Notes: generated by a model not told the origin, from the sequence alone. Positions 14,957 through 49,554 are shown, numbered from the stretch's first letter. The stretch is DNA of 64,000 nt from Candidatus Shapirobacteria bacterium CG_4_10_14_0_8_um_filter_39_15 (GCA_002784465.1 PFLE01000011.1:3966-67965), one strand, 5' to 3'. Program-made: numbers and translations.

Positions 14957-14995
14957 CTACGTTCACACCTTTAAGGTGAACTACGTTCACACCTT
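14957..14995. repeat. REP-B element copy a (CTACGTTCACACCTTTAAGGTGAACTACGTTCACACC)
   Basis: Direct repeat of (C/T)TACGTTCACACC around a palindromic core CACCTTTAAGGTG. It lies immediately 3' of tRNA-Lys. Confidence 0.75.
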
Positions 14996-15008
14996 GGGAA
15001 TCGAATCT

Positions 15009-15686
15009 TTAATTCTTATATACGTTATTGAAGCAATTCTGGGCTTTCTGAAAACCAGCATCCTGGGCTTCTTTTTCAGTACAAAACCAACTTTCTCCTA
15101 AATTTTTTTCTACAAAAACCGCAGTATATTCACTGCATCCTGGAAAAAAATAATGTTTAATCGTCGTATTCTTAGTGATATTTCCTTTAATCAGACATTT
15201 AGGGTTATCCGGCTTTTCGGCAAAGCAGGGCGGTTCATGAATACCTCGATTATTTGCAACCGCTTCGTCATCGGCTTTTTTTAAAATTTTCCTCTTGGAA
15301 TTTGGAGTACCATCATATCTGACGAGTCCTTCTTTTAGTAAAGCCTCGTTAACCAAAACATTATTAACATAAACCAAGGCGAGTGTTCGGTTGAAAACGT
15401 CTTCGGTATTCGCCACAATCGTCACATTTTTTCCCAAAATCATTTTTTCCAAATATTGTTTGGCTTCTATTCCCCCGCATAAATTTATTTCCGGGGCCTC
15501 AATATTACTTAATCTGATTCTTTGCCAGCCGCCGATAATAATTGTATCCCCGTCAACAACATTGGTAACTTTATTCGATTCAGCCAGCTTTTGATTTTGA
15601 GAATATTGAAAGATATTTAATCCCAAAGACCCCACCAACCCCAAAGTCCCCAAAACCCCCAAAATTCCTAATTTATTTCTCTTCAT
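15009..15686 (-). CDS. secreted thermonuclease (SNase-like) with a Cys-rich C-terminal domain
   Basis: N-terminal hydrophobic segment, then VVDGDTIIIGGWQRIRLSNIEAPE, which is the staphylococcal-nuclease motif. Confidence 0.7.
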   Translation of the reverse strand: MKRNKLGILGVLGTLGLVGSLGLNIFQYSQNQKLAESNKVTNVVDGDTIIIGGWQRIRLSNIEAPEINLCGGIEAKQYLEKMILGKNVTIVANTEDVFNRTLALVYVNNVLVNEALLKEGLVRYDGTPNSKRKILKKADDEAVANNRGIHEPPCFAEKPDNPKCLIKGNITKNTTIKHYFFPGCSEYTAVFVEKNLGESWFCTEKEAQDAGFQKAQNCFNNVYKN

Positions 15687-15721
15687 AATATTCCCTTTGT
15701 CTTCCTTTATTTTCCTTATGT

Positions 15722-15754
15722 GTCATTCCGGTCATTGAGCCGGAATCTATACAA
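15722..15754. repeat. hairpin-family element H3 (GTCATTCCGGTC-ATTGA-GCCGGAATCTATACAA)
   Basis: Intergenic, about 35 nt upstream of the thermonuclease start. Confidence 0.55.
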
Positions 15755-15956
15755 CAGGATTATTGGCCGAATAAATAGCAACAAAAATAATCAATATTGT
15801 TATTCCTAAAACGAAAATCGAAACTCCAACAAGAGTACCCTTAATAATATTTTTTAGCGATATGCTTGTATCAAAAGGATCAAGAGGATAAATTTTCGCT
15901 TTCGGGTCGTAGATAAAAGTTATTTCAACGGTAGCATCTTTAAGCGGATTCTTCAT
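15747..15956 (-). CDS. hypothetical small membrane protein
   Basis: 69 aa with a C-terminal TM helix; weak call. Confidence 0.25.
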   Translation of the reverse strand: MKNPLKDATVEITFIYDPKAKIYPLDPFDTSISLKNIIKGTLVGVSIFVLGITILIIFVAIYSANNPVV

Positions 15957-16042
15957 TGGATAATTTAGTTTAATTCAGAGGGTTTGAAAATGCAAAAAAA
16001 AGAATTTTAATCTTGTTTAAAATACTTGAATATTTTTCTCCA

Positions 16043-16421
16043 TTAATTTATCCTGCTCATTAAAAACAAATTGACCCAAAAGAAAAATTTTTCAGAAACC
16101 ATATCTAAACTATCAACATTTAATGGATCAACCCATTGAAAATCTCCTTCTTCAGATGACGGAAGAGAAATAATGTTGGGAAGATTGCCAATAAAGTTAA
16201 CATGAACCCATTCAACGCTTCCTGACGGAACTACGGATTGGGTCACCCCATATGGTCTAAGACTCTCCGGGTTCTACCTTTCCCCCAATTCCAGAATATT
16301 TGCCGGGATTAACCTTTTTTGTCATCGGTCTTTTAACCAGCAAAACTTTTCCTTGAGAAAAAACAAGGATATTAACACTTAAAATCGTCTTATAATCCAT
16401 ATACTTCTGTAAGTCACTCAT
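16043..16421 (-). pseudogene. Nudix hydrolase pseudogene (frameshifted; Nudix box lost)
   Basis: One frame gives MSDLQKYMDYKTILSVNILVFSQGKVLLVKR...PGKYSGIGGKVEPGES and then a stop. The downstream frame (ORF-track 16043..16246) continues with a Nudix-like C-terminus. REx2EE is absent. Confidence 0.45.
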
Positions 16422-16425
16422 ATCT

Positions 16426-17270
16426 TAGGGTAATTGTCAATATTTAGCACCAAATTTGTTAATTAATAATTTTAATAATCTTTCTTTTTGTTTTGTTAAA
16501 TCGTCTTTTTTATGGTTATCTCTCCAAACATATTCTCCTAAGAAAAGTGGTAAGTAAATTCTTCTGACTCCACCCTTACTTGCCAGTTTTCTTTTGAGAA
16601 AACCCCAGAAGCCTTCCAAGCCATTGATGTGATTTTTGCCCCTGACATATTCTTTTTCCCGATGTTCAACTGTTCTATGAACATATCCCATTGCTGCCAA
16701 TCCGGTGTAACTTCTGTAGGTATCAGAACAGATGCGAGATCCGGTTCTAACCTTCTTCGTTATGATCGGTATTAGGTCTTTCGCTTCCGTATCAGAAACA
16801 ACTTTGGCAAACACTTTGCCATTTCGGCAAAGGATACCAAAGACAGGCTGTTTGGTGGTTCCAAAACCACTTTTACTTTCCTTTTGTTTTCTTTTGACCT
16901 CCAAGGTGAGTTTCATCTACTTCCACTGTTCCTGAAAACATTTTAGGGATGTCTTTTAACATGACCATTCTTAACAACCTTAATGCCTTGTTTATGGTTC
17001 CCATGCTTTTCCCTGTCTTTTCCTTTATGGTTGGACTATTTACCTCCAGTAAAAACAAATCAATAATCTTGATTCAGTCTTTTCTGGAAAGATTAAAACC
17101 AGAAATAAATTTAGGTTTTGAATCCTTTCTGCAAACCCGACAACGATATTCTCCACCGGTTAATTTCCAGTACTTTTTTCCTCCACAATTCTCACATTTG
17201 TATCTCATGTGCAAATTATATCGAAAAATCGAACCGTTTTCTTATTTTAAGGTGCTAGATTTTAGATATT
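16426..17270 (-). mobile_element. degenerate IS1595-family insertion sequence (~845 bp) with ~26-bp imperfect terminal inverted repeats
   Basis: IR-L is TAGGGTAATTGTCAATATTTAGCACC (16426-16451). IR-R is GGTGCTAGATTTTAGATATTACCCTA (17243-17268). The transposase is internal and fragmented. Confidence 0.6.
16437..17207 (-). pseudogene. IS1595-family (ISXO2-like DDE) transposase split into three frames
   Basis: Zn-ribbon piece MRYKCENCGGKKYWKLTGGEYRCRVC (17207-17070, then stop). Next piece ...GTVEVDETHLGGQKKTKGK (17058..16873). C-terminal DDE piece ...HINGLEGFWGFLKRKL...LFLGEYVWRDNHK (16916..16437). Confidence 0.7.
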
Positions 17271-17361
17271 ACCCTACTATACGTAGTCTTTCCAGTTAAG
17301 ACGTAAAGCGCCTAGGTCGAAGGCGTATGGATTAGACAAATTTATCCAAGAGGGGTGTAAA

Positions 17362-17607: not shown

Positions 17608-17815
17608 CAACCGCTGGGCCAACAACTGAATAAGTGATCTAAATTAAGAAAGGGTACTCCATAATGGAGATAAGGCGTAAGATCACTACGCTAGAACATC
17701 CGTTCTACCCTTTCTTTTCTCTTTAAAAAAAATTTAAATTAAAAATTGGTTAGGCTTCTTGACATAAACAGCCTTATATGAGATTATAAATTTGGCAAAA
17801 TGAATTACAAAAACG

Positions 17816-23188: not shown

Positions 23189-23242
23189 AAGACTAAATGG
23201 AGTTTAAAGCAGTCGAAAGGAAAATGCAAAAAACATTCCCCT

Positions 23243-23255
23243 TCCGATGTGGAAA
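23243..23255. repeat. half-copy of the REP-A palindrome (TCCGATGTGGAAA)
   Basis: Matches the right arm of REP-A at 3941-3954. It lies in an accessory region. Confidence 0.4.
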
Positions 23256-28314: not shown

Positions 28315-28420
28315 TTGAAGTATTTTAGCAGATTTTAGAAGAAAATAAAAGTGCAGTACCGGAAGAATATCAAAACAACAAGAAAGTTGTACTTTTCTTA
28401 TTATTGAACCCCTCCGGTAC

Positions 28421-30403
28421 TTAGAAGTTCACAACTGGACCGTCGTATGTAATCTTACCCATATTGATGATCACAACGCGAGAAGCAGTCTTTGCCACCT
28501 GCTGGTCATGGGTAACGATTACGACGGCGATTCCTTTTTGTATCAGTGCTTGTACTAAATCTAGAACTTTGGCAATTCCGTCTGCATCAAGCCCGATGGT
28601 TGGTTCGTCTAGAATCAGGACTTGAATTCCCGCGGTTGAGGCAGAAATCGCGAGCATTTCTACTTCACTTGGATGAAGATCCAATGGACAGCTTAGTGGT
28701 TCCAAACCGGTCCAATCAATTCCTTCCGTAACGAACGCTTCAATTCTACCCGAATCCCAATGTTGTATTTTAGGACTGAACGAAAGTTCGTCATTCACTG
28801 TCATTGAGATAGTTTGAAGAGAGGCATTTTGAAAGACGTAGCCGACTCCTCCTCTCGCCTTGACATTTCCCTTGATTGGCTTAATTGCACCGGCAAGAGT
28901 CAGCATCGCAGTTGTTTTTCCGGAACCATTAGGTCCCATAACAACCACAAGTTCGCCTTCTCTTAAGTCTAGCGAGATGCCGTTAAGAATTGCTGTTCCG
29001 TCTAGCTCCACATAGACATTGTCCATTTTAGCGATAATCTCTCCCGGAATAACAGACATTGGTGGCCGGAATTCGCGTAGAAGAGAGTATCGGGAAAGCA
29101 TCTCTTCGGTGAAGAACTCTCCGGGAAGAACATCCTGCGCAATTGTTCCTTTTTCTAGGGTAACTACCCGTGTAACAAAAGGTTTTATTTCACTCCAAAA
29201 GGGATCAGCGATTATCACGGTGCAAGGATTTTGAACGAGGAAATCCTTAAGAGCACTCAAGAATTCCTGCCGTCCTTGCGGATCAAGTTCCTGCATTGGG
29301 GAATCAAAAAGAAGAATTTTTGCTGTAGAAGCGAGAATTCCGGCAAGAACAAGCCGAACTTGCTGTCCTCCCGAAAGTTTAGTTATCTCCTTTTCCCACA
29401 AATCCCCGATTCCCATTATCTCAAGGGTTCTTCGTGCACTGATTTCGTTTTCGGCGAGGAAAGTTATCTCCTGCCCAACAGTGAGTCCGTGAAACGAAGC
29501 AAAGGGATCCGGGGATATATAACGGACTGATCCGGAAAGTTTTGCTAGGGACGTATTCATCGTATTCATCCCTGATGCAGTAACGCTTCCCATGAATTCG
29601 CCCATAATTGAACTGATAATACCCCCTACTACCCTAAGGAGCGTCGTTTTTCCAGATCCCGACCTCCCTGCTAGGTAGATAAATTCTCCACCATCAACCC
29701 TTAGGTTAATTCCCGTCAATACATCCGGAAGGAGGGGCGAGTAGCGAACATGTACGTCATTCAGAATAAGATCCCCATTTCCTTCAGGCTTTGTTCGTGT
29801 ATGCGATAAGCTGGCGGCTGCTCCTTTCTGAGTGTTGTCTATCACTCGAGGAATTATCGCCATTGCAAGTGGAATGAGATTCCTAATACTGGCGATTGGC
29901 GAATCCCACTTCAGCCCACGAATGATAAGCGATTGCGTGAGAGCCACAAACTCTCTTTTGATAATCTGGACCCCTCGAAGAATTGTCAAAACCCAAGGTT
30001 CTGCAGGTTTTATCCAGGATAATCCTTCGTACATCTCTGGAAGAGAGGTAGAAAGAAGCCAGGCAAACGAGATAAGCATCGCCCCGATGATTCTTGTCCC
30101 CATCACCAATCCTCTCTCGAAACCTGCTTGGTTCACTGTGAAAACTAACCATTGCCAGCCGCCATGACCTCTAGCGGAGAAAATCACGTTATAGAAAAAC
30201 ATCATCGCCCCGGTAATGGGAGCAGCTAAAACCAACTTCCAATTCCGATTTTCGCCCACAAGATAAATTACAATTCCAACAAGAAGGAAAAGGATTGCAC
30301 CCGGAATGTTGTTAATGAAAATGTAGAGACAACCGCTGGTGAAAACGACTACCAGCCTCACTCTTGGTGATAGAAAAGACAAACCTCTCTTCCTCGTCTT
30401 CAT
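28421..30403 (-). CDS. fused ECF-transporter T component (CbiQ/EcfT) plus two ABC ATPase domains (EcfA/EcfA')
   Basis: N-terminal multi-TM EcfT-like region, then Walker A GRSGSGKTT and signature LSGGQQ, then a second Walker A GPNGSGKTT. GC is far above the genome background. Confidence 0.75.
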   Translation of the reverse strand: MKTRKRGLSFLSPRVRLVVVFTSGCLYIFINNIPGAILFLLVGIVIYLVGENRNWKLVLAAPITGAMMFFYNVIFSARGHGGWQWLVFTVNQAGFERGLVMGTRIIGAMLISFAWLLSTSLPEMYEGLSWIKPAEPWVLTILRGVQIIKREFVALTQSLIIRGLKWDSPIASIRNLIPLAMAIIPRVIDNTQKGAAASLSHTRTKPEGNGDLILNDVHVRYSPLLPDVLTGINLRVDGGEFIYLAGRSGSGKTTLLRVVGGIISSIMGEFMGSVTASGMNTMNTSLAKLSGSVRYISPDPFASFHGLTVGQEITFLAENEISARRTLEIMGIGDLWEKEITKLSGGQQVRLVLAGILASTAKILLFDSPMQELDPQGRQEFLSALKDFLVQNPCTVIIADPFWSEIKPFVTRVVTLEKGTIAQDVLPGEFFTEEMLSRYSLLREFRPPMSVIPGEIIAKMDNVYVELDGTAILNGISLDLREGELVVVMGPNGSGKTTAMLTLAGAIKPIKGNVKARGGVGYVFQNASLQTISMTVNDELSFSPKIQHWDSGRIEAFVTEGIDWTGLEPLSCPLDLHPSEVEMLAISASTAGIQVLILDEPTIGLDADGIAKVLDLVQALIQKGIAVVIVTHDQQVAKTASRVVIINMGKITYDGPVVNF

Positions 30404-30484
30404 ATCTGCCTCCTAGAATACGTGGGACCGGACAGGCCAAATTGGGAACTGTCCGATCCCACTGACTAATGGAACCCAACAATG

Positions 30485-31270
30485 TTATTCGGCAATGCCG
30501 GCCTGGCGCAGGCGAAGGGTATATAGGGGTAAGAGGAACAACCCCAAGACGGCGGAGACCGTATCCCCCACAAACCAGCCGACACCAGGATCGATTAAGG
30601 CTGCCTCGATTGGTTTGCCACCCACGTAGGCTGCGAAGGCACCGATCAGCGCACTGACTCCACAGGCAACGACGGCAATGTCCACCGCGAGAACAAAGTG
30701 ATCCATGTTCAGGTTTCTGCCAACGTTCCCCAGGATGACGGGCACGCCCACCACCAGAACGATAAGGGGCAGAGCCAGACCCCAAGGGGATGGCAAAGCC
30801 AGAACAATATTGACCAGACCCGCCGCCATGACCGCCAGAGCGAGCACGACGACGCGAACGGCCCCGTTCAGCACGTCATACGGATCTTTGCAGCCGAACG
30901 TAGGATCAAGTCTTAACATTCGGAACAGAAGGGCAGGCAGCATTGCGTTGGCAAACCCGCCGGCAATGGGATTCTGGATGATGTCCGTAATACCCCATCC
31001 GCCATACGCGAAAATACCGGCTGTATACGCACCGAGTCCGCCTGCCACCGCTCCGAGCCATGGTCCAAGCCAGATTCCCGCGACCAACTGCAAGGCCGCA
31101 GGTAACCAGATGAAGCTCGCCCCCTTCACAGAGGGTGACGAACCAACGGTTATCATGACCCAACCGATCGCGGCGATGGCCACTGCCAGAAAGCCGGCGA
31201 AGGTGTAGCGTAGAACCGGGTCACGTCGTGCAACGTACGTCTTAGAACTTGCCATTGGAATTTCCTCCAT
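30485..31270 (-). CDS. integral membrane protein, putative ECF S-component (substrate capture subunit)
   Basis: 261 aa rich in Ala/Gly/Val/Leu with multiple TM helices. It lies between the ECF T/A gene and a 5-FCL-family gene. Other ORFs overlapping this GC-rich stretch are spurious. Confidence 0.45.
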   Translation of the reverse strand: MEEIPMASSKTYVARRDPVLRYTFAGFLAVAIAAIGWVMITVGSSPSVKGASFIWLPAALQLVAGIWLGPWLGAVAGGLGAYTAGIFAYGGWGITDIIQNPIAGGFANAMLPALLFRMLRLDPTFGCKDPYDVLNGAVRVVVLALAVMAAGLVNIVLALPSPWGLALPLIVLVVGVPVILGNVGRNLNMDHFVLAVDIAVVACGVSALIGAFAAYVGGKPIEAALIDPGVGWFVGDTVSAVLGLFLLPLYTLRLRQAGIAE

Positions 31271-31284
31271 TTTACTAACTTTTT

Positions 31285-32055
31285 TTACAGCTGAGAAGAA
31301 AGCCTGGTCGGCATACCTACCACCTCCTCCTGCATCGCCTGAAGCTCCCGAAGCGGAGGGATTGACCCCAACATTCCTGGCTGGAGACTATCCCAAACCA
31401 CCCCAAGAGTGGGTTTGTGCGGCTCGTCGACCTTGATCATCCTTCTCGGAGTGCAAATCAGATCACAAGCCGTGTCGAATGGATCGGCGGAGAATTGCTC
31501 GGTGACCACCTGGCAGTCATGAACAACTGCGACTACCGGTGTTTTGGCACTGACGACGCCGATTGAATAGAACATGGCCCATTCAAGATCGAAATAGCCA
31601 TGCCCTTTACCAATACGAATCCCTCCGATTGTTACTGCCCCTGTTCCGGTCACTAACAAGTCAATTTTGCCGAATATGCTTTTGATGCTTTGGAGTGATA
31701 TGATAGCACCTTCGTTTTCCATGCCATCCAGGGTAGCGGCATAAAGGTACCGGCTTTTTGGGATACCAGGACCGAGAAGAACAAACCCCCTCCGAATTCC
31801 ATATGTAGAAACAATGATCGTTTTTTCTTGCCATAAAGCATGGTAGCGCAACCTTTCCAAACAATTATCCGGGGTGATGAAGACAGTATCTGCCTGTCTC
31901 CAAAAATCGCTCCTTATTAACCGACCCAGGGCTTGACCGCTTCCTACAAAATCCGCGATAAATTCACCCAGATCCATGTCGAATCGGCTATCGGGACGAG
32001 CAACCCCCTTCCTTAACTTCTCAAAAACTGCTTGCCTGACTTCATTCTTATCCAT
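31285..32055 (-). CDS. 5-formyltetrahydrofolate cyclo-ligase-family (MTHFS-like fold) protein
   Basis: IGKGHGYFDLEW matches the GxGxGYYD motif, and ITPDNCLERLR is N-terminal-like. 256 aa. Confidence 0.5.
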   Translation of the reverse strand: MDKNEVRQAVFEKLRKGVARPDSRFDMDLGEFIADFVGSGQALGRLIRSDFWRQADTVFITPDNCLERLRYHALWQEKTIIVSTYGIRRGFVLLGPGIPKSRYLYAATLDGMENEGAIISLQSIKSIFGKIDLLVTGTGAVTIGGIRIGKGHGYFDLEWAMFYSIGVVSAKTPVVAVVHDCQVVTEQFSADPFDTACDLICTPRRMIKVDEPHKPTLGVVWDSLQPGMLGSIPPLRELQAMQEEVVGMPTRLSSQL

Positions 32056-32175
32056 TACTCCTCCTTCATAAAATTAATACATTTCACAGGCTAGCTCTCT
32101 ACCTCTGAACAACTTTTCGGATGCAGAGCGCTAACCTGTATATTTGTTAAAGTACAATGTTTTTATCCACCAAAA

Positions 32176-32207
32176 AAGCGCCTCTTATTGGCGCTTCCTA
32201 GTAAACA
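32176..32207 (-). terminator. Rho-independent terminator downstream of purF (bidirectional hairpin AAGCGCC-tcttatt-GGCGCTT flanked by A6/T6)
   Basis: On the minus strand, a 7-bp GC-rich stem followed by TTTTTT. Confidence 0.5.
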
Positions 32208-32437
32208 AAAACCTAATTAAAGGAAATTTTTCAACTGAAAAAAAATTTCGAACGGCCAATTTATGTATTTTCATCTTGCGGCCGGACAGTTTACAAGAAT
32301 TATTATTCTGACAATTACAAACTATAACACTGTGAAAAAGTTGTCAAGGGGCAATTATGCCCCTAGCCGTAACCATCCCCGAATTTTTGTCTCCAGATTT
32401 TTATCTGTTAATCTTTTTTTTTGATTATTTTCATTTT

Positions 32438-33853
32438 CTAGTCAAATTTATTCTTATTGGCTGTAAAAGAAGAAACAGGATATTTTCCGGTCGCGCACCC
32501 TAAACATAAACCATATTCTTTTTTAACCGTTTCGTTAACAACTTGGGAAAATTCCTCAACTGAAAGATAATTTAGCGAATCAACCTCTAGAGATTTGGCA
32601 ACTTGATTTATTTTAACCATTTCTTTTGCTATTAGCTTGTCACTGTCATTAATGTCTGTCCCTAATGGACAATAACCAATAACCGGCGGGAAAATAATTC
32701 TAAGATGTATTTTTTTAGCTCCACCATTCCGTAAATCTCCAATCCTTCTTCTTATCGTTTGCACAACCCCCCTGGTCGTTGTTCCGCGAATAATCGAATC
32801 GTCAACGATGGCGATTTCTTTCCCTTGAACAATATCGAAGGGGTGATAATTTCCATTGGCAACTTCTTTTCTCGTCTCATGGTTGGGATTAATAAAACCG
32901 CGAATTGCTCCATTGATGCTTCCGTAACGATTTTTCAACATTGACGTTTTTAAATCTATGGGTTTCCCCCAAAGTTCTGATAACCCTTGGGTAAAACCTT
33001 CTGATGCTGATTTTGCTGATTCAGCAATATAGGTCACAAAATCAATCGTTTTTGGAGGAGGATATAGTTCTACCAATTTTTTCCCAAGATTTCTTCTAAG
33101 TTTGTTAAAAATAATCATTTCGCCGGGTTTAACCTCTCTTTTATAGGAAATCTCTAAATTATTAAACGCTGATGATTCCGAAGATATGGCATAACCAGTT
33201 ATTTTATCTTGGGTAAATTCGGCATACGATAACGGACGATTACCGTATTTATCCCTAATGGCAATGATTGAATTTTTGGTAGCAAAAATTAAACAAAAGG
33301 ATCCCTCTAGTACGGGAAGACACTTCTCAATTTTGGTAATTAGACTTTTACCCGGTAAAGATAGAATTAAAGAACCAATAATTTCACTATCAGTTGTGCT
33401 AGAAAAAGAAAACCTCTTTTTTACAAGGATTTCTTTTAGCTGCGGGGCGTTTGTTATGTTTCCATTATGGGCAACAGCAAACGATCCTTTTGGTGAATCA
33501 AATAAAAAAGGAGCGGCATTTTTTAATGAAGACGAACCCGTTGTTGAATATCGGGTATGGGAAACAGCTAAATACCCCTTTAAATTTTGCTTAATATTTT
33601 CTTCACTCTCCAAATAAGTATTATATAAATTTCGTACTAAACCCATTCTTTTGAAAACCGCTGATAATTTTCGGCCATCACCAACAACAATTCCCGCCGA
33701 TTCCTCACCTCGGTGTTGCAAGGCCAATAATCCGGAAAGAGTAGAAGTTACGATCGTGTTTGAAAAATCCGGGTGAGGAAAAAATATACCAAATACCCCA
33801 CATTCTTCATGCGGATGATCAATATAAATTTTATTTGAATATAATATCTTCAT
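32438..33853 (-). CDS. purF: amidophosphoribosyltransferase
   Basis: Ntn-type Cys in CGVFGIF after a short leader. PRTase motif IAIVDDSIIRGTTTRG. 471 aa. Confidence 0.9.
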   Translation of the reverse strand: MKILYSNKIYIDHPHEECGVFGIFFPHPDFSNTIVTSTLSGLLALQHRGEESAGIVVGDGRKLSAVFKRMGLVRNLYNTYLESEENIKQNLKGYLAVSHTRYSTTGSSSLKNAAPFLFDSPKGSFAVAHNGNITNAPQLKEILVKKRFSFSSTTDSEIIGSLILSLPGKSLITKIEKCLPVLEGSFCLIFATKNSIIAIRDKYGNRPLSYAEFTQDKITGYAISSESSAFNNLEISYKREVKPGEMIIFNKLRRNLGKKLVELYPPPKTIDFVTYIAESAKSASEGFTQGLSELWGKPIDLKTSMLKNRYGSINGAIRGFINPNHETRKEVANGNYHPFDIVQGKEIAIVDDSIIRGTTTRGVVQTIRRRIGDLRNGGAKKIHLRIIFPPVIGYCPLGTDINDSDKLIAKEMVKINQVAKSLEVDSLNYLSVEEFSQVVNETVKKEYGLCLGCATGKYPVSSFTANKNKFD

Positions 33854-33880
33854 AAAACCCGAGTGCTAAAATTCGGTGGG

Positions 33881-34411
33881 TCAAGTACCAAATAAGGGAA
33901 GTTTGCCTAATGAATAAAAAGAAATCGTAATTTCCACCTTTTCTTCACCTTGCTTTAATACGGCCACGACTCCAACGACCCGGGCGTTGACTTCTTTCAT
34001 CAAATCATCTACCACTTTTATGGTTTTTCCGGTGGAAACAACATCATCAACAATCAGGACTTTTTTTCCTTTTATCAACTCGGCATCCGGTCCGTTTAAA
34101 ACCATCCCTGGTTTAGTTTTACTGGAAATCGGATGAGTCATATAACCCATGATGTTTTTTCTTAGGATTATATAACGAGGTTTTTTTAAAAGATTGGACA
34201 ATTCTTGCATTAAAGGGACAACTTTTACTTCCGGACCAACCAAATAATCAAAATCCAAATCCTTTATTTTTTCGGCCAGAGATTCGGCCACTTTTTTGAC
34301 CAATTCTCCATCACCAAGAAGGTTAAATGAAGCAATTTTCAAAAGAGGTCCTATGCTGACGATAGGAAGCTCTCTTTCCAAACCGCATATGTTTAATTTA
34401 TAAACATTCAT
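33881..34411 (-). CDS. type I phosphoribosyltransferase-family protein (PyrE/Apt-like)
   Basis: PRPP-binding motif VLIVDDVVSTGKT. Start uncertain: ORF-track 34543, with the internal ATG at 34411 more plausible. Confidence 0.55.
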   Translation of the reverse strand: MNVYKLNICGLERELPIVSIGPLLKIASFNLLGDGELVKKVAESLAEKIKDLDFDYLVGPEVKVVPLMQELSNLLKKPRYIILRKNIMGYMTHPISSKTKPGMVLNGPDAELIKGKKVLIVDDVVSTGKTIKVVDDLMKEVNARVVGVVAVLKQGEEKVEITISFYSLGKLPLFGT

Positions 34412-34533
34412 AAAATTATGATAACAGAATTGCCTTTTTTTGTTAAACTTTATATGAGCAATCAGACTGATTCGTGGTTTAGGAGGAAGATTGGTTGGTC
34501 TCGCCTGTGTTTGTAATTTGGGAAACATCACAA

Positions 34534-34592
34534 CTACGTTCACACCTTAAAGGTGAATTAGCTTCACACCTCGGGTATTTGTTCACTTACGA
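34534..34592. repeat. REP-B element copy b with a 25-nt tail (…GAATTAGCTTCACACCTCGGGTATTTGTTCACTTACGAG)
   Basis: Same core as copy a. Its tail is shared with copy c. Confidence 0.7.
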
Positions 34593-34664
34593 GATGTTTT
34601 TGAATAAGACTTTCTAAAAAATGCCAATAATCACTTTTGCCCCGATCTATTCCTATAATGTTTA

Positions 34665-35855
34665 TTACTTATACCAATTCCTAAAATTCGGATATGGTCT
34701 ATCGAACATGCAACAAAGCAGTGCCATTCGTACGTCTACTCCATTTCCTACTTGGCGAAAATAAGCCGCCCTTGGGTCACTATCCACTCGAGGGTCTATT
34801 TCTCCTCTTCTGGGCAGAGGATGGATTAATGTTAAATCTTTCTTTGCTTCTTTCATAATTTCCGGCGTTATTCTATAGAGATTTTCGTAACGCCTACATT
34901 CATCAAGATCTTTAAATCTTTCATTTTGAATTCTTGTAACATACAAAACATCAAGTGATGGCAATACTTCCGCCAAATCGCCAGTAACGACTACCTCACT
35001 TTGTCCTCCCCGTGTTAAAGATTCAATAATTGGTTGAGGCATTGATAGTTGTTCAGGAGAAATAAAATAGAACACCGCCGGTCCGCCCATACAGTTCAAC
35101 GATTTAGTCAGCGAATGTACCGTCCTTCCGTGTTTTAAATCCCCCAACATTCCTATATGCAACCTATGTAAATCATTAGCATTTTTGAGTCTTTTTTCCC
35201 AAATAATTGTGGTAATATCCAAAAGAGCTTGACTTGGGTGTTCACCTATTCCATCTCCCGCATTTATGACTCGCGGTTTTGTTCCATCACACCTAGTCAT
35301 AGATTGAAGGGCAAAAGCGGCTATTGCTGCCGCCCCGACTTCAGGGTGCCTTTGAACAATGACTGGAGAAATTTCCCCCATGACAATGGCATTGTCGGCT
35401 ACCGTTTCTCCCTTCGAAAAAGAAGACATTCTTATCATATCAGGGTTAGAAACAACGTCTAATCCCAATATTTGAGCTGCCGCTTCAAAAGACGTCCTTG
35501 TTCTGGTGCTTGGCTCGTAAAATGCAGTTTGCATGGAAAGAGGAAAAAGCCAACTTTTCAACTCAAATAACGCTCGCTGCTCCTTAGACATCCTTGTATC
35601 TCTAATTCTTGTTGCCATATTCACAATTTCAGCAAAATCATTAGCGGTTAACTGTTCCACACTAATAAAACTTTTGTTTCCCCACTCTCCCTCAATTTTT
35701 GGAGGACGCCAATGCTCGGGCATTCCAATTCTTTCCGCCTCTTCCTTCATACTTAACGATCCCTCTCTTTTATTAGTGCTTAATTCGCTCGAATTAGGCT
35801 CAATGATTCTGGTAATATCTGGAATTATTTCAAACCGTTCAACACTGGCAAACAT
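34665..35855 (-). CDS. pyrB: aspartate carbamoyltransferase catalytic-chain-like protein with an N-terminal extension
   Basis: FYEPSTRTRTSFE, HPSQALLD, GDLKHGRTVHSL. Bracketed by direct REP-B copies b and c. Confidence 0.65.
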   Translation of the reverse strand: MFASVERFEIIPDITRIIEPNSSELSTNKREGSLSMKEEAERIGMPEHWRPPKIEGEWGNKSFISVEQLTANDFAEIVNMATRIRDTRMSKEQRALFELKSWLFPLSMQTAFYEPSTRTRTSFEAAAQILGLDVVSNPDMIRMSSFSKGETVADNAIVMGEISPVIVQRHPEVGAAAIAAFALQSMTRCDGTKPRVINAGDGIGEHPSQALLDITTIIWEKRLKNANDLHRLHIGMLGDLKHGRTVHSLTKSLNCMGGPAVFYFISPEQLSMPQPIIESLTRGGQSEVVVTGDLAEVLPSLDVLYVTRIQNERFKDLDECRRYENLYRITPEIMKEAKKDLTLIHPLPRRGEIDPRVDSDPRAAYFRQVGNGVDVRMALLCCMFDRPYPNFRNWYK

Positions 35856-36025
35856 ATTATTAAACTATTCCCTCTCATCGGTGGTTGAAATTTTCTAACA
35901 ATAACTTCTTATTGTGATATCTTCTCATGTTCTTCTTAATAAAGTTTTTGGCTCTAGGAAATTATTATAAAGACAATTTACCCCGGATCAAGTCCCACTT
36001 TAACTTCATACAACAGGTGTCAATG

Positions 36026-36081
36026 TTACCCACCTTAAAGGTGAATTAGCTTCACACCTCGGGTATTTGTTCACTTACGAG
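36026..36081. repeat. REP-B element copy c (same subtype and tail as b)
   Basis: CCACCTTAAAGGTGAATTAGCTTCACACCTCGGGTATTTGTTCACTTACGAG. It contains the dnaE stop codon. Confidence 0.7.
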
Positions 36082-39000
36082 TAATTTTTGAATCTCTTTT
36101 TCTAAATTTTTATTATAATTTACCCCAAAATTCAAAACCAACTTCTTGGTATTGCCATTATTTTCAAAAACCAAAACCCCATTATTTTCACCCGGATTGT
36201 CTTTCAAAATTTTATTCAGTTCAACCAGTATTTCCGGCGCGGTTCCTTTGGGAATATTAACGGTAAAATCATAATGTGTGCCATTCCCGTTGGTTTTTAA
36301 AGTTGAAAGCGAAACTGCTTTTTCCGCAATAATCGAAATTCGATCGTCTCTGATTTCCAGTTTTCCTTCAACAATCACGATTTGATCTTTTACCCAGTTT
36401 GACTTAGACTCGGCATATACTTTAGGAAATACTATTACCTCTATCTTACCGGTTTGGTCTTCAAGCGTGGCAAAAACCATTTCCGAATTGGTTTTTTTGG
36501 TAAAAGTAGTCCGTAAAGCCGATATTATTCCTCCAATTTTAACCTTATCGATTGGTTCATATAAATCGGTTAATTCGCCGATTTTATGGCTAACTTCGTT
36601 TGTCAACAAGGCCAGAACAGCTGTCAGAGGATGCTCGGTTAAATAAAAGCCTAATAAATCTTTTTCCAAAGTGAGCAATTCATTTCTTGAAAATTCTTCA
36701 ATTTTTGGTAAATTATCCTTGCTTTCAATTTTATTCTGATTATCCTCGTCGTTGTTAAACAAATTTCCCTGACCGGAGATTATATTCTTCTGACTATTCT
36801 CGCATCCGAGCCGGATCTTATCTAATCCTGCCAATTGGGCGGCCCGAGATCCGAAGTGATCCATCGCCCCCACTTTAATCAACGATTCTAAAACTTTTTT
36901 ATTGACTTTCTGGCCATTCACCCGCCCGCAAAAATCCGTTAATGTTTTGAAATCGCCATTTTTTGATCTAGCTTCTAAAATCGCTCCAATGGCCGCTTCG
37001 CCGACATTTTTAATGGCCGAAAGTCCAAACCGAATAGCTTTGTCTTCCCGCGAACCAGTATCTCTTTCAATCGTAAAACCAACATCTGATTTGTTAATAT
37101 CCGGCGGTAGAACTTTTATTCCCATATGGTTACATTCCTGAATTCCTTCGGTCACCTTATCCGTATCACCAGATTCCGCTGTTAATAAAGCCGTCATGTA
37201 TTCATCCGGATAATGAGCTTTTAAATAAGCGGTCTGATAAGAAACAAAGCCATAGGATGCCGCGTGAGCTTTGTTAAATCCATACCCTTGAAAAGGAACA
37301 AATAATTCCCAAAGTTTTTCCGCTTCCTTTTTGGAGATGTTGGAAAATTTCTGGCAACCTTCCACAAAAATTTCGTGCTGTTTCGCCATTTCCGCCGGAA
37401 TTTTTTTACCGATCGCGACTCGCAGCTTATCAACCGATTCCCAGTTATAACCGGCCAATTCCATGGCCGTAAACAAAATGTCCTCCTGATAAACTAAAAT
37501 GCCGTAGGATTTGTCGAGAAATTTTTCCATTTTCGGATGAAGATAGGTAACTTTATTCCTCCCGTGTTTTCGGGCAATGAATTCCGGAATATTTGCCATT
37601 GGTCCGGGACGGAATAAGGCAATCATTACCATTAAATCTTCAATTCGGTTTGGTTTAAGATCAATCAACCATTTAGTCATCCCCGATCCGCCCAATTGAA
37701 AAGTTCCCATAGTTTCCCCCCTTGCCAACATATCGAAGGTCTTTTTATCATCAAGAGGTATTTTACCCAAATCAATTTTTTCGCCGATTGCCTTTTCGAT
37801 AATTTCTAAGGCCGATGTTAATATCGAAAGATTTCTTATTCCCAAAATATCAAACTTAACCAGACCAACTTCTTCGCAAGCATGCATTTCGTATTGAGTA
37901 ATTATTTTTATGCCTTCAGGCTCAAGTTGCAAGGGAGTAAAATTCGTCATTTCTTCCGGAGCAACAACGACACCGGCCGCATGAACAGAAGAATGGCGGG
38001 CATTGCCTTCAATTTCCTGTGCCACGTCTAAAACGCGTTTTGCGTCGGGTTCATTGATGTACATCGTTTTTAATTCGGGGGAGATTTCAATCGCGTGTTT
38101 AATCGTCATCGGGAAACCCTGCGACCCCATCGGAATTAATTTGGAAATTTTATCCGGAAAAGAATAAGGATGACCTAAAACTCGGCCAACGTCTCTAACA
38201 GCAGCGCGAGCTAACATCCTACCAAAAGTACAAATTTGAGCAACTTTATTAGCCCCGTATTTTTGAACAATATATGTGATCAATTCGTCTCTGCGATTAT
38301 CGGCAATATCTAAATCTATATCCGGCGGTTTAGGCCGGAAAGGATTTAAAAATCTTTCAAAGGGCAAGGCGTATTTAATCGGATCAACCGAAGTGATTCC
38401 TAAAACATAAGAAACGATCGAACCGGCGGCTGAACCTCTGGTATTTGTAACAATCCCCCGATTGGTACACCAGTTAACCATATCGGCCATTATTAAAAAA
38501 TATGAAGCATAACCCTTATTGATAATTACCTCCAGCTCATAATCGAGTCTTTTTTTTGTTTCTTCGACTGCTTGAGGATATTTTTCCGGAAAACCGGCGG
38601 AAGCCAATTCTTTTAAATAATCTGGCTCTGTTTTACCTTCCGGAAGATCAAATTTTGGAAACAGCCATTTTCCTAGTTCCATTTGCAAATCAACCATTTT
38701 GCTGATTTTAACCGTATTTTTTAAGGCGTCCGGAACATCGGCAAAAAGACTTTTCATTTCTTGCGGTGTTCGAAGATGAAAGGTTGGGTTGTCAACGTAC
38801 CGCAACCTGTCAATATCAGAAACTAATTTCCCCGTTGACACGCAAACCAAAACATCCTGTGCAAAAGCATCCGATTGCTTGAGATAATGAACGTCATTCG
38901 TCGCCACCAAGGGAATCCCTAATTCACGGCTCAATTTTACCGTATCTCTTACCCAAATATCCTCACTCCTTTGCATTTCCGTTAACCTGGTTATGATTTT

Positions 39001-44112: not shown

Positions 44113-44146
44113 ATTTATACATTGTTAATTCATTAAGTTTCATAAA

Positions 44147-44193
44147 CTACGTTCACACCTTAAAGGTGAATTACGTTCACACCTTCGTTATTC
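44147..44193. repeat. REP-B element copy d (AACTACGTTCACACCTTAAAGGTGAATTACGTTCACACCTTCG)
   Basis: Intergenic between gatC and gatA. Confidence 0.75.
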
Positions 44194-44472: not shown

Positions 44473-44473
44473 T

Positions 44474-45985: not shown

Positions 45986-46018
45986 GTCATTCCAGGCTTG
46001 ACCTGGAATCTATATAAT
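45986..46018. repeat. hairpin-family element H5 (GTCATTCCAGGC-TTGA-CCTGGAATCTATATAATAA)
   Basis: Intergenic, about 30 nt upstream of the lemA start, just after the polX stop. Confidence 0.55.
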
Positions 46019-46021
46019 AAT

Positions 46022-47845: not shown

Positions 47846-47923
47846 TATAGCAGTCTATCATTATAACAATATGCTATCAAAAGATTGATTCTTCCTCAAG
47901 CGTATGCTATATTTTAGGCGCAA

Positions 47924-47996
47924 GGATCCGTAGTGTAATGGTTAACACATCGCCCTGTCACGGCGAAAATTACCGGTTCGAGCCCGGCCGGGTCCG
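47924..47996 (+). tRNA. tRNA-Asp (anticodon GTC)
   Basis: Acceptor GGATCCG/CGGGTCC, D-stem GTGT/ACAC, anticodon stem TCGCC/GGCGA with loop CTGTCAC, T-loop TTCGAGC. Confidence 0.85.
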
Positions 47997-48029
47997 CATC
48001 TTCTGCCCAAAGGAGGTGATATTGGGCAA

Positions 48030-48593
48030 ATGACATTAAAATCGTTTTTAAAAAATCTTAAAAAATCGGAACAGACAATTAATACTATTTTGGGAGCCTT
48101 GGTTGTTATTATAATTGGCGTTCTAATCTTTAATTATCTTCACTCGCGATCCGCAAACAATCCTGAAAGCAACTTAAGTGTTTCCGAAGAACAGCAAGGC
48201 AATCAATCGTTGAAAGAATTGCCTCAAGTTCATCAGGTTAAGACCGGTGAAAGATTGTGGGATATTGCAATTCAATATTATGGTTCCGGCTACAATTGGG
48301 TTGATATTGCTAAAGCCAATAATTTAACTAATCCGAACGTGATTACTGTTGACCAAAAATTGGTGATTCCGGCGGTTGCTGAAAAAACATTGATTTCCAC
48401 CAATACGACAACTATCCAAGGTACAACACAAATTACGAGTGATAATTATACCGTTATTCGAGGCGATAGTCTTTGGAAAATCGCAGTTAGGGCTTATGGC
48501 GACGGCTATAAATGGGTGGAAATTGCCAAAACCAATAAATTGGTTAATCCGGGAATAATTCATCCGGGCAATGTTTTGGTTTTACCAAGGTAA
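48030..48593 (+). CDS. membrane-anchored protein with two LysM peptidoglycan-binding domains
   Basis: Two LysM repeats (ERLWDIAIQYYGSGYNWVDIAKANNL..., DSLWKIAVRAYGDGYKWVEIAKTNKL...). Confidence 0.75.
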   Translation: MTLKSFLKNLKKSEQTINTILGALVVIIIGVLIFNYLHSRSANNPESNLSVSEEQQGNQSLKELPQVHQVKTGERLWDIAIQYYGSGYNWVDIAKANNLTNPNVITVDQKLVIPAVAEKTLISTNTTTIQGTTQITSDNYTVIRGDSLWKIAVRAYGDGYKWVEIAKTNKLVNPGIIHPGNVLVLPR

Positions 48594-48626
48594 ACTACAG
48601 ATCTGATATAATTACCGTGTAACAAT

Positions 48627-48701
48627 GCGGTAGTAGTTCAGTGGTAGAATGTCTCCTTCCCAAGGAGAAGGTCGCCGGTTCGAGTCCGGTCTACCGCTCC
48701 A
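48627..48701 (+). tRNA. tRNA-Gly (anticodon CCC), CCA encoded
   Basis: Acceptor GCGGTAG/CTACCGC, anticodon stem TCTCC/GGAGA with loop TTCCCAA. Confidence 0.85.
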
Positions 48702-48773
48702 GCCAATGTAGCTCAGTGGTAGAGCAGCTGTTTCGTAAACAGCAGGTCGTGGGTTCAATTCCCACCGTTGGCT
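48702..48773 (+). tRNA. tRNA-Thr (anticodon CGT)
   Basis: Acceptor GCCAATG/CGTTGGC, anticodon stem GCTGT/ACAGC with loop TTCGTAA, T-arm GTGGG-TTCAATT-CCCAC. Confidence 0.85.
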
Positions 48774-48776
48774 CAG

Positions 48777-49490
48777 ATGAAAAGATTTTATTCCCGTTTG
48801 GCTCGAAAAGAAGAAACCCGAAGCCGCCGGCAAATATTTATTTATGGTGGTTTGTCCGTTATTTTTCTCATTTGCTTGGTTATTTTTGGTATTCCGTTAT
48901 TAACAAAACTCGCTTTTGTTTTTTCTTCAAAACAAAATTCGTCGGTCACGGAAAATAGTTTACCGTTATCGGCGCCGGTTCTTAATTCCGTTCCCCAAGC
49001 AACCAATAGCGCTTCTATTTCTTTTTCCGGTATGTCCTCTGACAAAACCCAAGTGGAAATTTTCCTTAACAACGCTTTATATACGACCGTTCCGGTTAAT
49101 AATGGGTCTTTCCAGGCACAAAATATTCAACTTAATGAAGGCAACAATACTTTTTATTCTCAAGCAATTAATTCTTCCGGGGGAAAAAGCCAGCCTTCGG
49201 ATACTCTGAACATTCTTCTTAAAACCACTCTGCCTACACTAATTATCGATAAACCGGCGGATAATTCGCAATTTAGCGGTTCAAATCAGCGCAATTTGTC
49301 AATCTCTGGCAAAACCGACCCCGATTGCACGATTTCGCTTAATGATCACTTGGCTATCATGGGAAAAGACGGTAATTTTTCTTATACTTTTACTCTGAAT
49401 GAAGGCGATAATGCTTTAAAAATTGTGGCAACTGATCAAGCGGGTAACCAAACCGAAAAGGATTTAACTATTAATTATTCTTCTAATTGA
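48777..49490 (+). CDS. membrane-anchored secreted protein with Ig-like (Big) repeats
   Basis: N-terminal TM helix then two Thr/Ser/Asn-rich beta-type repeats ending ...GNNTFYSQA / ...GDNALKIVATDQAGN. Confidence 0.4.
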   Translation: MKRFYSRLARKEETRSRRQIFIYGGLSVIFLICLVIFGIPLLTKLAFVFSSKQNSSVTENSLPLSAPVLNSVPQATNSASISFSGMSSDKTQVEIFLNNALYTTVPVNNGSFQAQNIQLNEGNNTFYSQAINSSGGKSQPSDTLNILLKTTLPTLIIDKPADNSQFSGSNQRNLSISGKTDPDCTISLNDHLAIMGKDGNFSYTFTLNEGDNALKIVATDQAGNQTEKDLTINYSSN

Positions 49491-49504
49491 GTTTCTTTTT
49501 TTAA

Positions 49505-49554
49505 TCTACGTTCACACCTTAAAGGTGATCTAGCTTCGCACCTCGGGATTTTTC
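49505..49554. repeat. REP-B element copy e (TCTACGTTCACACCTTAAAGGTGATCTAGCTTCGCACCTCGGGATTTTTC)
   Basis: Same subtype as copies b and c. It supplies the last codons and the stop of the ORF 49519..50763. Confidence 0.7.

What the first reader, a model, noticed from the sequence alone, without database searches (positions are those of the whole stretch)
14957..49554. REP-B family dispersed at five further loci, in two subtypes; pyrB is bracketed by two direct copies with an identical 25-nt tail
Additional REP-B copies lie at 14957-14995 (after tRNA-Lys), 34534-34592, 36026-36081, 44147-44193 (between gatC and gatA) and 49505-49554.

The consensus is (C/T)TACGTTCACACC - TTAAAGG - TGAAyTACGTTCACACC. 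This is a direct repeat around a hairpin, TTCAC(AC)CTT/AAGGTGAA.

Copies b, c and e form a subtype (...TAGCTTCrCACCTCGGG...). Copies b and c share a further identical tail, TATTTGTTCACTTACGAG, and sit in direct orientation on either side of the pyrB-like gene. That suggests a segmental event or recombination substrate.

Copies c and e provide the stop codons of dnaE and of the Wzy-like ORF respectively. The central TTAAA/TTTAA core is flipped in copy a.
Basis: seen in the sequence. Interest (0 to 1): 0.55.

Follow-up and report, generated by a model that had tools for sequence, protein, structure and literature searches.

The report
REP repeats with their transposase, in CPR
The five repeats are real copies of a small mobile-type repeat (a REP element) whose own dedicated transposase gene lies in the same window, in an ultra-small "candidate phyla radiation" bacterium where I found no published description of such systems.

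Summary
All five copies are at the stated coordinates. The window has seven copies in all (f 57476-57515, g 58219-58256), against 0.05 expected by chance.

The family is a genuine REP family. Copies f and g flank, in inverted orientation, a 219-aa ORF (57555-58214). This ORF is a Y1/HUH tyrosine transposase, and its best structural match is the E. coli REP-associated transposase bound to a REP hairpin (4ER8). Two paralogues (43-45% identity) each carry a different flanking repeat, REP-A and 'REP-C'. Orthologues (64-65% identity) from two other contig sets keep REP-B-like flanks.

REP-B is absent from the same gatC-gatA and dnaE sites in relatives, so those copies are lineage-specific insertions.

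The b/c bracket of the pyrB-like gene is a 76-nt duplication, not a 25-nt tail. It has 52 identical nt of REP, then 25 nt (68% identical) of native dnaE 3' coding sequence. Closest relatives have dnaE followed directly by the phosphoribosyltransferase gene, so the pyrB-like gene is a single-gene insertion.

The REP is atypical: an invariant 13-nt palindrome, a repeated arm, weak folding and no doublets.

Verdict: new member of a known kind (REP/RAYT) in Microgenomates. Interest is moderate.

The parts
14957..14995 (+). REP-B copy a (TACG type, centre TTTAA). It starts 3 nt after the CCA of tRNA-Lys and ends 13 nt before the stop of a convergent SNase-like ORF (15009-15686, -).
34534..34594 (+). 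REP-B copy b (TAGC type with tail). It lies in the intergenic region between the pyrB-like stop (34665) and the PRT start (34411).
34595..34618 (-). Decayed duplicate of the last native dnaE codons. The pseudo-tail reads LESLIQKHL, against LEKEIQKLL in DnaE.
34665..35855 (-). pyrB-like Asp/Orn carbamoyltransferase gene, bracketed by the 76-nt direct duplication. It is absent from this position in the closest relatives.
36016..36082 (+). REP-B copy c (TAGC type with tail). Its arm 1 is the variant TACCCACC, and it extends left as a longer imperfect palindrome. It supplies the last 7 codons plus the stop of dnaE (VSEQIPEV*).
44147..44183 (+). REP-B copy d (TACG type). It starts 4 nt downstream of the gatC stop and lies upstream of gatA. 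It is absent from this junction in relatives.
49505..49554 (+). REP-B copy e (TAGC type). It encodes the last 11 codons and the stop of the Wzy_C ORF (49519-50763, -), and is convergent with an Ig-domain ORF ending at 49490.
57476..57515 (+). REP-B copy f, the upstream flank of RAYT-B.
57555..58214 (+). RAYT-B: a 219-aa Y1/HUH tyrosine transposase and the cognate gene of REP-B. It has the NHFH motif and an invariant Tyr in SRYVHLNP.
58219..58256 (-). REP-B copy g, the downstream flank of RAYT-B, inverted relative to f. Its arm 1 is formed by the 3' end of tRNA-Val (58246-58320, -).
3186..3954 (+). Sister REPtron. RAYT-A (3246-3914, 222 aa, 45% identical to RAYT-B) is flanked by inverted REP-A copies (3186-3223 +, 3917-3954 -). 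These have the same three-arm plan and a near-identical second half (TAGCTTGACACATCGGGA).

Best explanation
REP-B is a family of repetitive extragenic palindromes belonging to a REP/RAYT system (a 'REPtron'). The host is a Candidatus Shapirobacteria-like member of the Microgenomates (CPR/Patescibacteria).

**The element.** It is about 40 nt long. It consists of CTACG, arm 1 (TTCACACC), TTWAA, arm 2 (GGTGAA), YTASS, arm 3 (TTCrCACC), and sometimes a tail (TCGGGTATTTG...). The invariant core is the palindrome CACCTT-W-AAGGTG followed by a second CACCT.

**The gene.** Its dedicated gene is RAYT-B (57555-58214), a Y1/HUH tyrosine transposase flanked by inverted REP-B copies f and g.

**Proposed mechanism (inferred).** By analogy with E. 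coli TnpAREP and the IS200/IS605 transposases, RAYT-B is proposed to bind the REP hairpin in single-stranded DNA at the replication fork, then cut and rejoin it. That would seed new copies in trans. Copies survive only where they do little harm: between genes, after tRNAs, or over the last few codons of a gene.

**The five loci.** They are such dispersed copies. c rewrote the C-terminus and stop of DnaE, and e that of a Wzy-like protein.

**The b/c pair.** It is a 76-nt duplication of 'dnaE 3' end + REP-B' flanking a single inserted pyrB-like gene. This is most simply explained by recombination that used the REP-bearing segment as substrate.

**Shown versus inferred.** Shown: the family, its cognate gene, conservation of the arrangement around orthologues, absence at orthologous sites in relatives, and the duplication. 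Inferred: catalysis by RAYT-B, the single-strand mechanism, and any benefit to the host.
For: 1. **Non-random family.** Seven copies against 0.05 expected.
2. **Transposase identity.**
   - The ORF between the inverted copies f and g hits Pfam Y1_Tnp above its cut-off (24 bits against 23).
   - Its only NCBIfam hit is 'REP-associated tyrosine transposase' (E 7e-9).
   - A family profile aligns its HUH region to ISDra2 TnpA.
   - An AlphaFold model (pLDDT 87) has 4ER8, E. coli TnpAREP bound to a REP hairpin, as its best PDB match (E 2.7e-6, TM 0.72 on the target). IS608 and ISDra2 TnpA come next.
3. **One repeat family per paralogue, as described for REPtrons (PMC6006769).**
   - RAYT-A (45% identical) is flanked by inverted REP-A.
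   - A third paralogue (43% identical), just outside the window, is flanked by CTACGTTCCCACTTGACAAGTGGGAAC.
4. **Orthologues keep the flanks.** RAYT-B orthologues of 64-65% identity in L104 and L106 are flanked by inverted REP-B-like copies.
5. **Hairpin kept while sequence changes.** More distant homologues in L022, L032 and L035 have flanking hairpins TTCCAC..GTGGAA whose stems change in a compensatory way.
6. **Lineage-specific insertions.**
   - There is no REP-B in 1.4 Mb from 80 related dnaE loci.
   - There is none in the closest relatives, 71-74% DnaE identity by tblastn.
   - DnaE in those relatives ends 1-3 residues after LL, whereas here it carries 8 extra REP-encoded residues.
7. 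**Placement and orientation.** All copies are extragenic or overlap at most 11 terminal codons. Six of seven lie on the same strand, within a stretch of constant negative GC skew.
Against: - The canonical REP hallmarks are only partly present. The conserved tetranucleotide CTAC(G) lies 5' of the hairpin on the strand as written. That is GTAG 3' of the hairpin on the other strand, not the canonical 5' GT[AG]G foot. The internal tetranucleotide varies (GTAG, GTAA, CTAA, CTAG).
- The hairpins are short and weak, and there are no REPIN doublets.
- RAYT-B scores far below NCBIfam's equivalog cut-off (35.7 bits against 80).
- The genome-wide copy number is unknown. An 864-kb contig from the L007/L009 contig set has only one exact hit to the 28-nt pattern.
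- No activity has been shown.
- The strict invariance of 18 core positions across contig sets would also fit a host protein-binding site.
Confidence: 0.85

Rival explanations
1. REP-B is primarily a host cis-element, either a protein-binding site or an RNA 3'-end/stabiliser element. Its position next to the transposase gene would then be incidental, or the result of exaptation.
For: - 18 core positions are invariant in 13 copies from four contig sets.
- b and c are 100% identical over 52 nt, while the adjoining duplicated 25 nt have decayed to 68%.
- Copies sit downstream of genes and tRNAs.
- In 6 of 7 copies the sense strand of the upstream protein-coding gene carries the same orientation.
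Against: - Folding is weak and mostly no better than shuffles.
- None of b-e is picked up as terminator-like.
- Copy f has the opposite orientation with respect to transcription.
- The element is absent from the same sites in relatives.
- Three paralogous transposases each carry their own repeat. A host regulatory site does not explain that.
Confidence: 0.07
2. f-ORF-g is an ordinary IS200/IS605-type insertion sequence, and the other copies are solo ends or MITE derivatives.
For: Pfam assigns the ORF to Y1_Tnp, 'Transposase IS200 like'. The profile search of PDB finds ISDra2 TnpA. Database annotators call homologues 'transposase'.
Against: - The flanks are inverted, not direct as for the left and right ends of IS200/IS605 elements.
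- There is no tnpB.
- The three genes seen in about 80 kb are 43-45% identical paralogues, not identical IS copies.
- The protein is 219 aa with a C-terminal extension.
- The best fold match is TnpAREP, not an IS transposase.
Confidence: 0.05
3. The b/c pair, and possibly others, are merely by-products of segmental duplication, and no element-specific process is involved.
For: The b/c similarity extends into native dnaE coding sequence. A 24-nt duplication of the gatA start lies beside copy d.
Against: Copies a, d, e, f and g share no flanking sequence with one another. The same core occurs in other contig sets in unrelated contexts.
Confidence: 0.03

Closest known systems
REP/RAYT systems ('REPtrons'): E. 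coli REP/BIME with TnpAREP (YafM; PDB 4ER8), and Pseudomonas fluorescens REPINs with their RAYTs
   Same: - A short palindromic repeat is dispersed in extragenic DNA.
- A Y1/HUH transposase gene is flanked by inverted copies of the same repeat.
- Several paralogous RAYTs in one genome each have their own REP family.
- REPs lie mostly after genes, between convergent or tandem ORFs, and sometimes run into coding ends.
- The best fold match of RAYT-B is TnpAREP.
   Different: - The host is a CPR bacterium with a very small genome, whereas non-IS TnpAY1 genes were reported mainly in large genomes (PMC6006769).
- The REP is AT-rich and folds weakly.
- Its conserved core is a 13-nt palindrome plus a direct repeat of one arm (1.6 tandem units of 24 nt).
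- There are no inverted doublets.
- The conserved CTAC/GTAG lies on the other side of the hairpin from the canonical 5' GT[AG]G.
- The protein is about 220 aa and scores below the NCBIfam equivalog cut-off.
Atypical REP-like flanks of TnpAY1 subclass 2.6 and class 3 (Quentin et al. 2018, PMC6006769)
   Same: The flanking secondary structures lack the GT[AG]G consensus and are weaker, and copies occur elsewhere in the genome.
   Different: Those subclasses are reported mainly in Bacteroidetes and in Planctomycetes/Acidobacteria. I did not place the CPR proteins in that classification.
IS200/IS605 insertion sequences (IS608, ISDra2)
   Same: They share the Y1/HUH catalytic core and recognise hairpins in single-stranded DNA. 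Their strand-specific insertion is linked to replication, which fits the 6:1 strand bias seen here.
   Different: IS elements have direct left and right ends, are multicopy and often carry tnpB. Here the flanks are inverted, the genes are diverged paralogues, and the mobile unit is the 40-nt repeat rather than the gene.

Membership tests
REP (repetitive extragenic palindrome) family | Short (20-40 nt) palindrome-containing unit present in multiple dispersed copies, more than chance allows | tested here: met
   7 copies in 64 kb against 0.05 expected. The same core occurs in the L007/L009, L008/L010, L104 and L106 contig sets.
REP (repetitive extragenic palindrome) family | Extragenic location, mostly downstream of genes | tested here: met
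   All 7 copies are intergenic or overlap only a stop codon plus at most 11 terminal codons.
REP (repetitive extragenic palindrome) family | Cognate RAYT gene flanked by copies of the same REP in inverted orientation (REPtron) | tested here: met
   f (+) and g (-) flank ORF 57555-58214. The same arrangement holds around orthologues in L104 and L106.
REP (repetitive extragenic palindrome) family | Conserved 5' GT[AG]G tetranucleotide at the foot of the hairpin | tested here: inconclusive
   CTACG precedes arm 1 in 5 of 7 copies. That is CGTAG 3' of the hairpin on the other strand. The tetranucleotide at the 5' foot on that strand is GTAG (a), GTAA (d, f), CTAA (b, c) or CTAG (e, g).
REP (repetitive extragenic palindrome) family | Stable stem-loop, with frequent inverted doublets (REPIN/BIME) | tested here: not met
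   Minimum free energy is -6 to -23 kcal/mol with z from +0.3 to -2.9. All dispersed copies are singlets with a direct partial repeat. Only c has an extended palindrome.
RAYT / TnpAREP (Y1 HUH transposase) | HUH motif and catalytic tyrosine in a Y1 transposase domain | tested here: met
   Pfam PF01797 scores 24 bits against a cut-off of 23. NHFH and the Tyr of SRYxHxNP are invariant in 43 homologues. The HUH region aligns to ISDra2 TnpA.
RAYT / TnpAREP (Y1 HUH transposase) | Fold closest to TnpAREP rather than to IS transposases | tested here: met
   Model pLDDT is 87. Foldseek rank 1 is 4ER8_A (E 2.7e-6, TM 0.72 on the target), ahead of IS608 and ISDra2.
RAYT / TnpAREP (Y1 HUH transposase) | Passes the curated NCBIfam equivalog model NF047646 | tested here: not met
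   It is the only hit, but scores 35.7 bits against a cut-off of 80. These are distant relatives of the curated family.
RAYT / TnpAREP (Y1 HUH transposase) | Single copy per REP family, not multicopy like an IS | tested here: inconclusive
   In about 80 kb there are three paralogues of 43-45% identity and no duplicates.
RAYT / TnpAREP (Y1 HUH transposase) | Binds and cleaves its REP as single-stranded DNA | not testable with these tools
   This needs biochemistry.
IS200/IS605 insertion sequence | Direct left and right end hairpins, identical multicopy elements, often tnpB | tested here: not met
   The flanks are inverted, there is no tnpB-like ORF next to it, and the paralogues are diverged.
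Intrinsic (Rho-independent) terminator | G+C-rich hairpin followed by a T run | tested here: not met
   None of b-e is among the terminator-like sites. The hairpins are weak and no T tract follows.

The most novel reading that the evidence does not exclude
A CPR-wide, so far undescribed RAYT lineage exists: proteins of about 220 aa, with at least 1,957 homologues, and every named source is a Microgenomates lineage except one (P0143, labelled Armatimonadetes). It persists as several paralogues in genomes of under 1 Mb, and each paralogue co-evolves with its own minimal REP. Direct REP pairs such as b/c would act as the recombination or transposition substrate that moves whole host genes (here a pyrB-like gene) into the dnaE-rplS hotspot. 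That would make REPs a driver of gene-order change in streamlined genomes.
Probability: 0.2. Interest if true: 0.6.

Novelty: new member of a known kind. Interest (0 to 1): 0.4.

Why it matters
REP/RAYT systems have been studied mostly in Proteobacteria. Non-IS Y1 transposase genes were reported to be enriched in large genomes and missing from small ones such as the Mollicutes (PMC6006769). Here, three paralogous RAYT genes, each with its own REP family, sit within about 80 kb of a Microgenomates genome, whose relatives have contigs of 0.75-0.86 Mb. The protein family has about 2,000 relatives in public data, mostly unannotated or labelled 'transposase' or 'hypothetical'.

This has three consequences:
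- It gives a concrete, testable pair (RAYT-B plus a 40-nt DNA) from a group with few genetic tools.
- It explains assembly breaks and altered protein C-termini in these genomes.
- It shows that REP copies mark, and may promote, gene insertions in reduced genomes.

Tried and rejected
- **Scan of GTDB species representatives** with the 28-nt core pattern: 0 hits. The species and its REP-bearing relatives are not among the representatives.
- **Scan of viral contigs:** 0 hits.
- **Rfam:** only tRNAs at gathering score, so no known RNA family covers the element.
- **Terminator reading:** rejected.
- **Replication terminus (Ter) sites:** considered because of the one-sided orientation. Rejected because GC skew does not change sign in the window and because copies flank transposase genes.
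- **DNA-uptake sequence:** rejected because isolated arms do not occur outside the composite element.
- **Integron-like cassette for the pyrB-like gene:** not pursued. The copies are dispersed and not in an array, and no integrase was seen in the gene lists.
- **Derivation from a tRNA 3' end:** arm 1 of g is the tRNA-Val 3' end, and c shares the same TACCCACC variant. The match is only 8 nt, so I leave this as a hint that c may descend from g.
- **phmmer of RAYT-B against PDB sequences:** found nothing relevant. A profile search and a fold search were needed.
- **Literature:** searches found no paper linking RAYT or REP to CPR.
- **Mechanism of the 76-nt duplication:** I could not decide between Campbell-type integration, unequal crossing-over and RAYT-mediated capture.

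Full report
**Observation.**
The hairpin pattern TTCACACCTTAAAGGTGAA with up to three mismatches occurs seven times in the window, against 0.05 expected from shuffles. The arm TACGTTCACACC with up to two mismatches occurs 14 times against 2.2 expected, and 11 of those lie inside the elements. The two extra copies are f (57476-57515, +) and g (58219-58256, -).

The smaller claims also hold:
- The centre is TTTAA in a (and in g).
- b, c and e share TAGCTTCrCACCTCGGG.
- b and c share the tail TATTTGTTCACTTACGAG.
- The dnaE stop lies in arm 3 of c.
- The stop of a Wzy_C-domain ORF lies in the loop of e.

**Organism.**
The window is 99.9% identical to contigs of NCBI assembly GCA_002793655.1 and to several ENA and JGI metagenome contigs. 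One protein from the window is named by NCBI as coming from 'Candidatus Shapirobacteria bacterium CG08_land...'. The nearest GTDB species representatives share only 68% DnaE identity and are Shapirobacteria, Amesbacteria or Woesebacteria, that is, Microgenomates of the candidate phyla radiation.

**What the element is.**
The decisive result came from the gene lists around the window ends. The ORF at 3246-3914 carries Pfam Y1_Tnp, and a second such gene lies just beyond the right end of the window. I then tested the unannotated ORF that sits between the inverted copies f and g (57555-58214, 219 aa):
- It hits Y1_Tnp just above the Pfam cut-off (24 bits against 23).
- Its only NCBIfam hit is NF047646, 'REP-associated tyrosine transposase' (E 7e-9, though below the equivalog cut-off).
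- It is 45% identical to the ORF at 3246-3914 and 43% identical to the third gene.
- An alignment of 43 homologues keeps an N-H-F/W-H motif and a tyrosine in S-R-Y-x-H-x-N-P invariant.
- A family profile aligns the HUH region to ISDra2 TnpA.
- An AlphaFold model (pLDDT 87, pTM 0.84) has as its best PDB match 4ER8, the E. coli REP-associated tyrosine transposase bound to a REP hairpin (E 2.7e-6, TM 0.72 normalised to the target). The IS608 and ISDra2 transposases follow.

I call the three genes RAYT-A, RAYT-B and RAYT-C.

**Each RAYT has its own repeat.**
- RAYT-A is flanked by inverted copies of 'REP-A' (TTCCACATCGGATGTGGAATAGCTTGACACATCGGGA; 3186-3223 + and 3917-3954 -).
- RAYT-B is flanked by f and g.
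- RAYT-C is flanked by CTACGTTCCCACTTGACAAGTGGGAAC.

REP-A and the TAGC subtype of REP-B share their second half almost base for base (TAGCTT-S-ACAC-M-TCGGG). REP-B and REP-C share the CTACGTTCnCAC head.

The link is conserved in evolution:
- RAYT-B orthologues of 64-65% identity (L104, L106) are flanked by inverted REP-B-like copies.
- More distant homologues in Microgenomates loci L022, L032 and L035 are flanked by inverted hairpins of the form TTCCAC...GTGGAA. The inner stem bases differ between loci but stay complementary.

**Anatomy of REP-B.**
I aligned 13 copies from four contig sets. The invariant positions are CACCTT-W-AAGGTG and a second CACCT 12-13 nt downstream.

The element is 1.6 tandem units of 24 nt. 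Folding is weak, at -6 to -23 kcal/mol with z-scores from +0.3 to -2.9. No copy among b-e is picked up as terminator-like.

The conserved CTAC(G) lies 5' of the hairpin on the strand as written. The canonical REP has GT[AG]G at the 5' foot. On the opposite strand of REP-B the 5'-foot tetranucleotide is GTAG, GTAA, CTAA or CTAG. The element is therefore an atypical REP.

**Evidence that copies are insertions.**
- No REP-B (up to 7 mismatches in 28) occurs in 1.4 Mb from 80 related dnaE loci.
- None occurs in the loci of the three closest relatives found, 71-74% DnaE identity by tblastn.
- In the gatC-gatA and dnaE-downstream junctions checked in relatives, the spacers are short or the genes overlap.
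- DnaE of relatives ends 1-3 residues (closest relatives) or up to 9 residues (GTDB representatives) after a conserved 'LL'. The window protein carries eight more residues (VSEQIPEV), encoded by the REP-B tail and arm 3.
- Outside this species the 28-nt core pattern was found in only two other JGI contig sets that do not match the window. One of them includes an 864-kb contig with a single exact hit.

**Orientation.**
Six of seven copies are on the + strand, across a stretch where GC skew is negative throughout. In six of seven, the sense strand of the upstream protein-coding gene reads GGTGTGAAC-GTAR-TTCACC-TTWAA-GGTGTGAAC-GTAG.

Most genes here are co-oriented, so I cannot separate a replication bias from a transcription bias. 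A replication bias would be expected for single-strand transposition. The sample is also small.

**The pyrB bracket.**
The b/c similarity spans 76 nt. It has 52 identical nt (REP core plus tail), followed by 25 nt at 68% identity. In c these 25 nt are the native dnaE codons LEKEIQKLL. In b they are a dead copy, LESLIQKHL. The homology of those codons to DnaE of relatives shows they are not part of the element.

Eighty Microgenomates loci have gatC-gatA-(MFS)-gatB-dnaE followed directly by rplS. The closest relatives have a nucleotide-metabolism and transporter island there, and in two of them dnaE is followed after 10-12 nt by the phosphoribosyltransferase gene. In a third relative, pyrimidine-synthesis genes occupy the same place.

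So the pyrB-like gene (OTCace domains) is a single-gene insertion between dnaE and PRT, flanked by a duplicated 'dnaE end + REP-B'. The REP part is perfectly conserved while the neighbouring duplicated bases have decayed. This indicates either constraint or gene conversion on the REP. I could not establish how the duplication arose.

**Rivals.**
- A host regulatory or terminator element is not excluded as a secondary role. It does not explain the paralogue-specific flanks or the absence from relatives.
- An ordinary IS200/IS605 element is unlikely. The flanks are inverted, there is no tnpB, the paralogues are diverged and the best fold match is TnpAREP.
- Pure segmental duplication explains only copy b.

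**Comparison and novelty.**
This is a REP/RAYT system by gene, fold and arrangement, with an atypical REP. I found no paper in the searchable library that links RAYTs or REPs to CPR bacteria. Quentin et al. report non-IS TnpAY1 genes mainly in larger genomes.

The protein family is large: 1,957 hits at E<=1e-5. Sources name Shapirobacteria, Levybacteria, Daviesbacteria and Gottesmanbacteria, with annotations of 'transposase' or 'hypothetical protein'. Many hits lie on contigs of 1-2 kb.

I rate this a new member of a known kind, of moderate interest.

Noticed in passing
window 56690-57470 (+): An ORF-free stretch of about 780 nt has 51-56% G+C in a genome of 30-38% G+C. It lies between the hydrolase gene and REP-B copy f. 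It ends in a long hairpin (CAGCTCCGG...CCGGAGCTC) followed by T7. It folds far better than shuffles (-302 kcal/mol, z -5.1) and has no Rfam match. It is a candidate large structured non-coding RNA next to the RAYT-B REPtron. No similar DNA was found in any fetched relative locus.
   Followed up: partly
window 44113-44146 (-): There is an imperfect tandem duplication of the gatA start between REP-B d and gatA. ATGAAACTTAATGAATTAACAATG (from 44143) matches the real start ATGAAGTTAAATGAATTAACGAT (44112) at 20 of 24 nt. Both encode MKLNELT. The upstream copy opens a 14-codon ORF that overlaps the real start.
   Followed up: partly
window 28400-36050: About 7.7 kb is inserted between dnaE and rplS relative to 80 Microgenomates loci. 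It carries the pyrB-like, PRT and purF genes at native G+C, followed by 5-formyl-THF cyclo-ligase, an unknown ORF and a CbiQ/ABC fusion at 45-59% G+C (28.4-32.0 kb). The closest relatives carry different nucleotide-metabolism genes at the same spot, so this is an insertion hotspot.
   Followed up: partly
window 3186-3954, and L101 6262-7010 (just right of the window, between ftsZ and ileS): Two further RAYT paralogues each have their own flanking repeat (REP-A and 'REP-C'). A third REP-A-like hairpin lies at 23235-23255. Both REP-C flanks appear to be in direct rather than inverted orientation.
   Followed up: partly
window 58246-58256 and 36026-36033: Arm 1 of copy g is the 3' end of tRNA-Val (CGTACCCACC, with only CC of the CCA encoded). 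Copy c has the same TACCCACC variant in place of TTCACACC. This suggests c descends from the RAYT-flanking copy g.
   Followed up: no
window 15967, 21779, 22715, 23201; and 15713, 22198: Two other small repeat families are present. One is AGTTTAATTCAG...GAAAATGCAAAAA (4 copies). The other is a hairpin, TCATTCCGG...CCGGAAT (2 copies). Their function is unknown.
   Followed up: no
L007 8758-8860 / L009 2780-2870: In another contig set not matching the window, a REP-A-like and a REP-B-like copy lie side by side between two convergent ORFs.
   Followed up: no
window 57516-57554: A sigma-70-like promoter (TTTACA-17 nt-TATAGT) lies between REP-B f and the RAYT-B start. L104 and L106 have TTGAC right after the upstream REP.
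   Followed up: no
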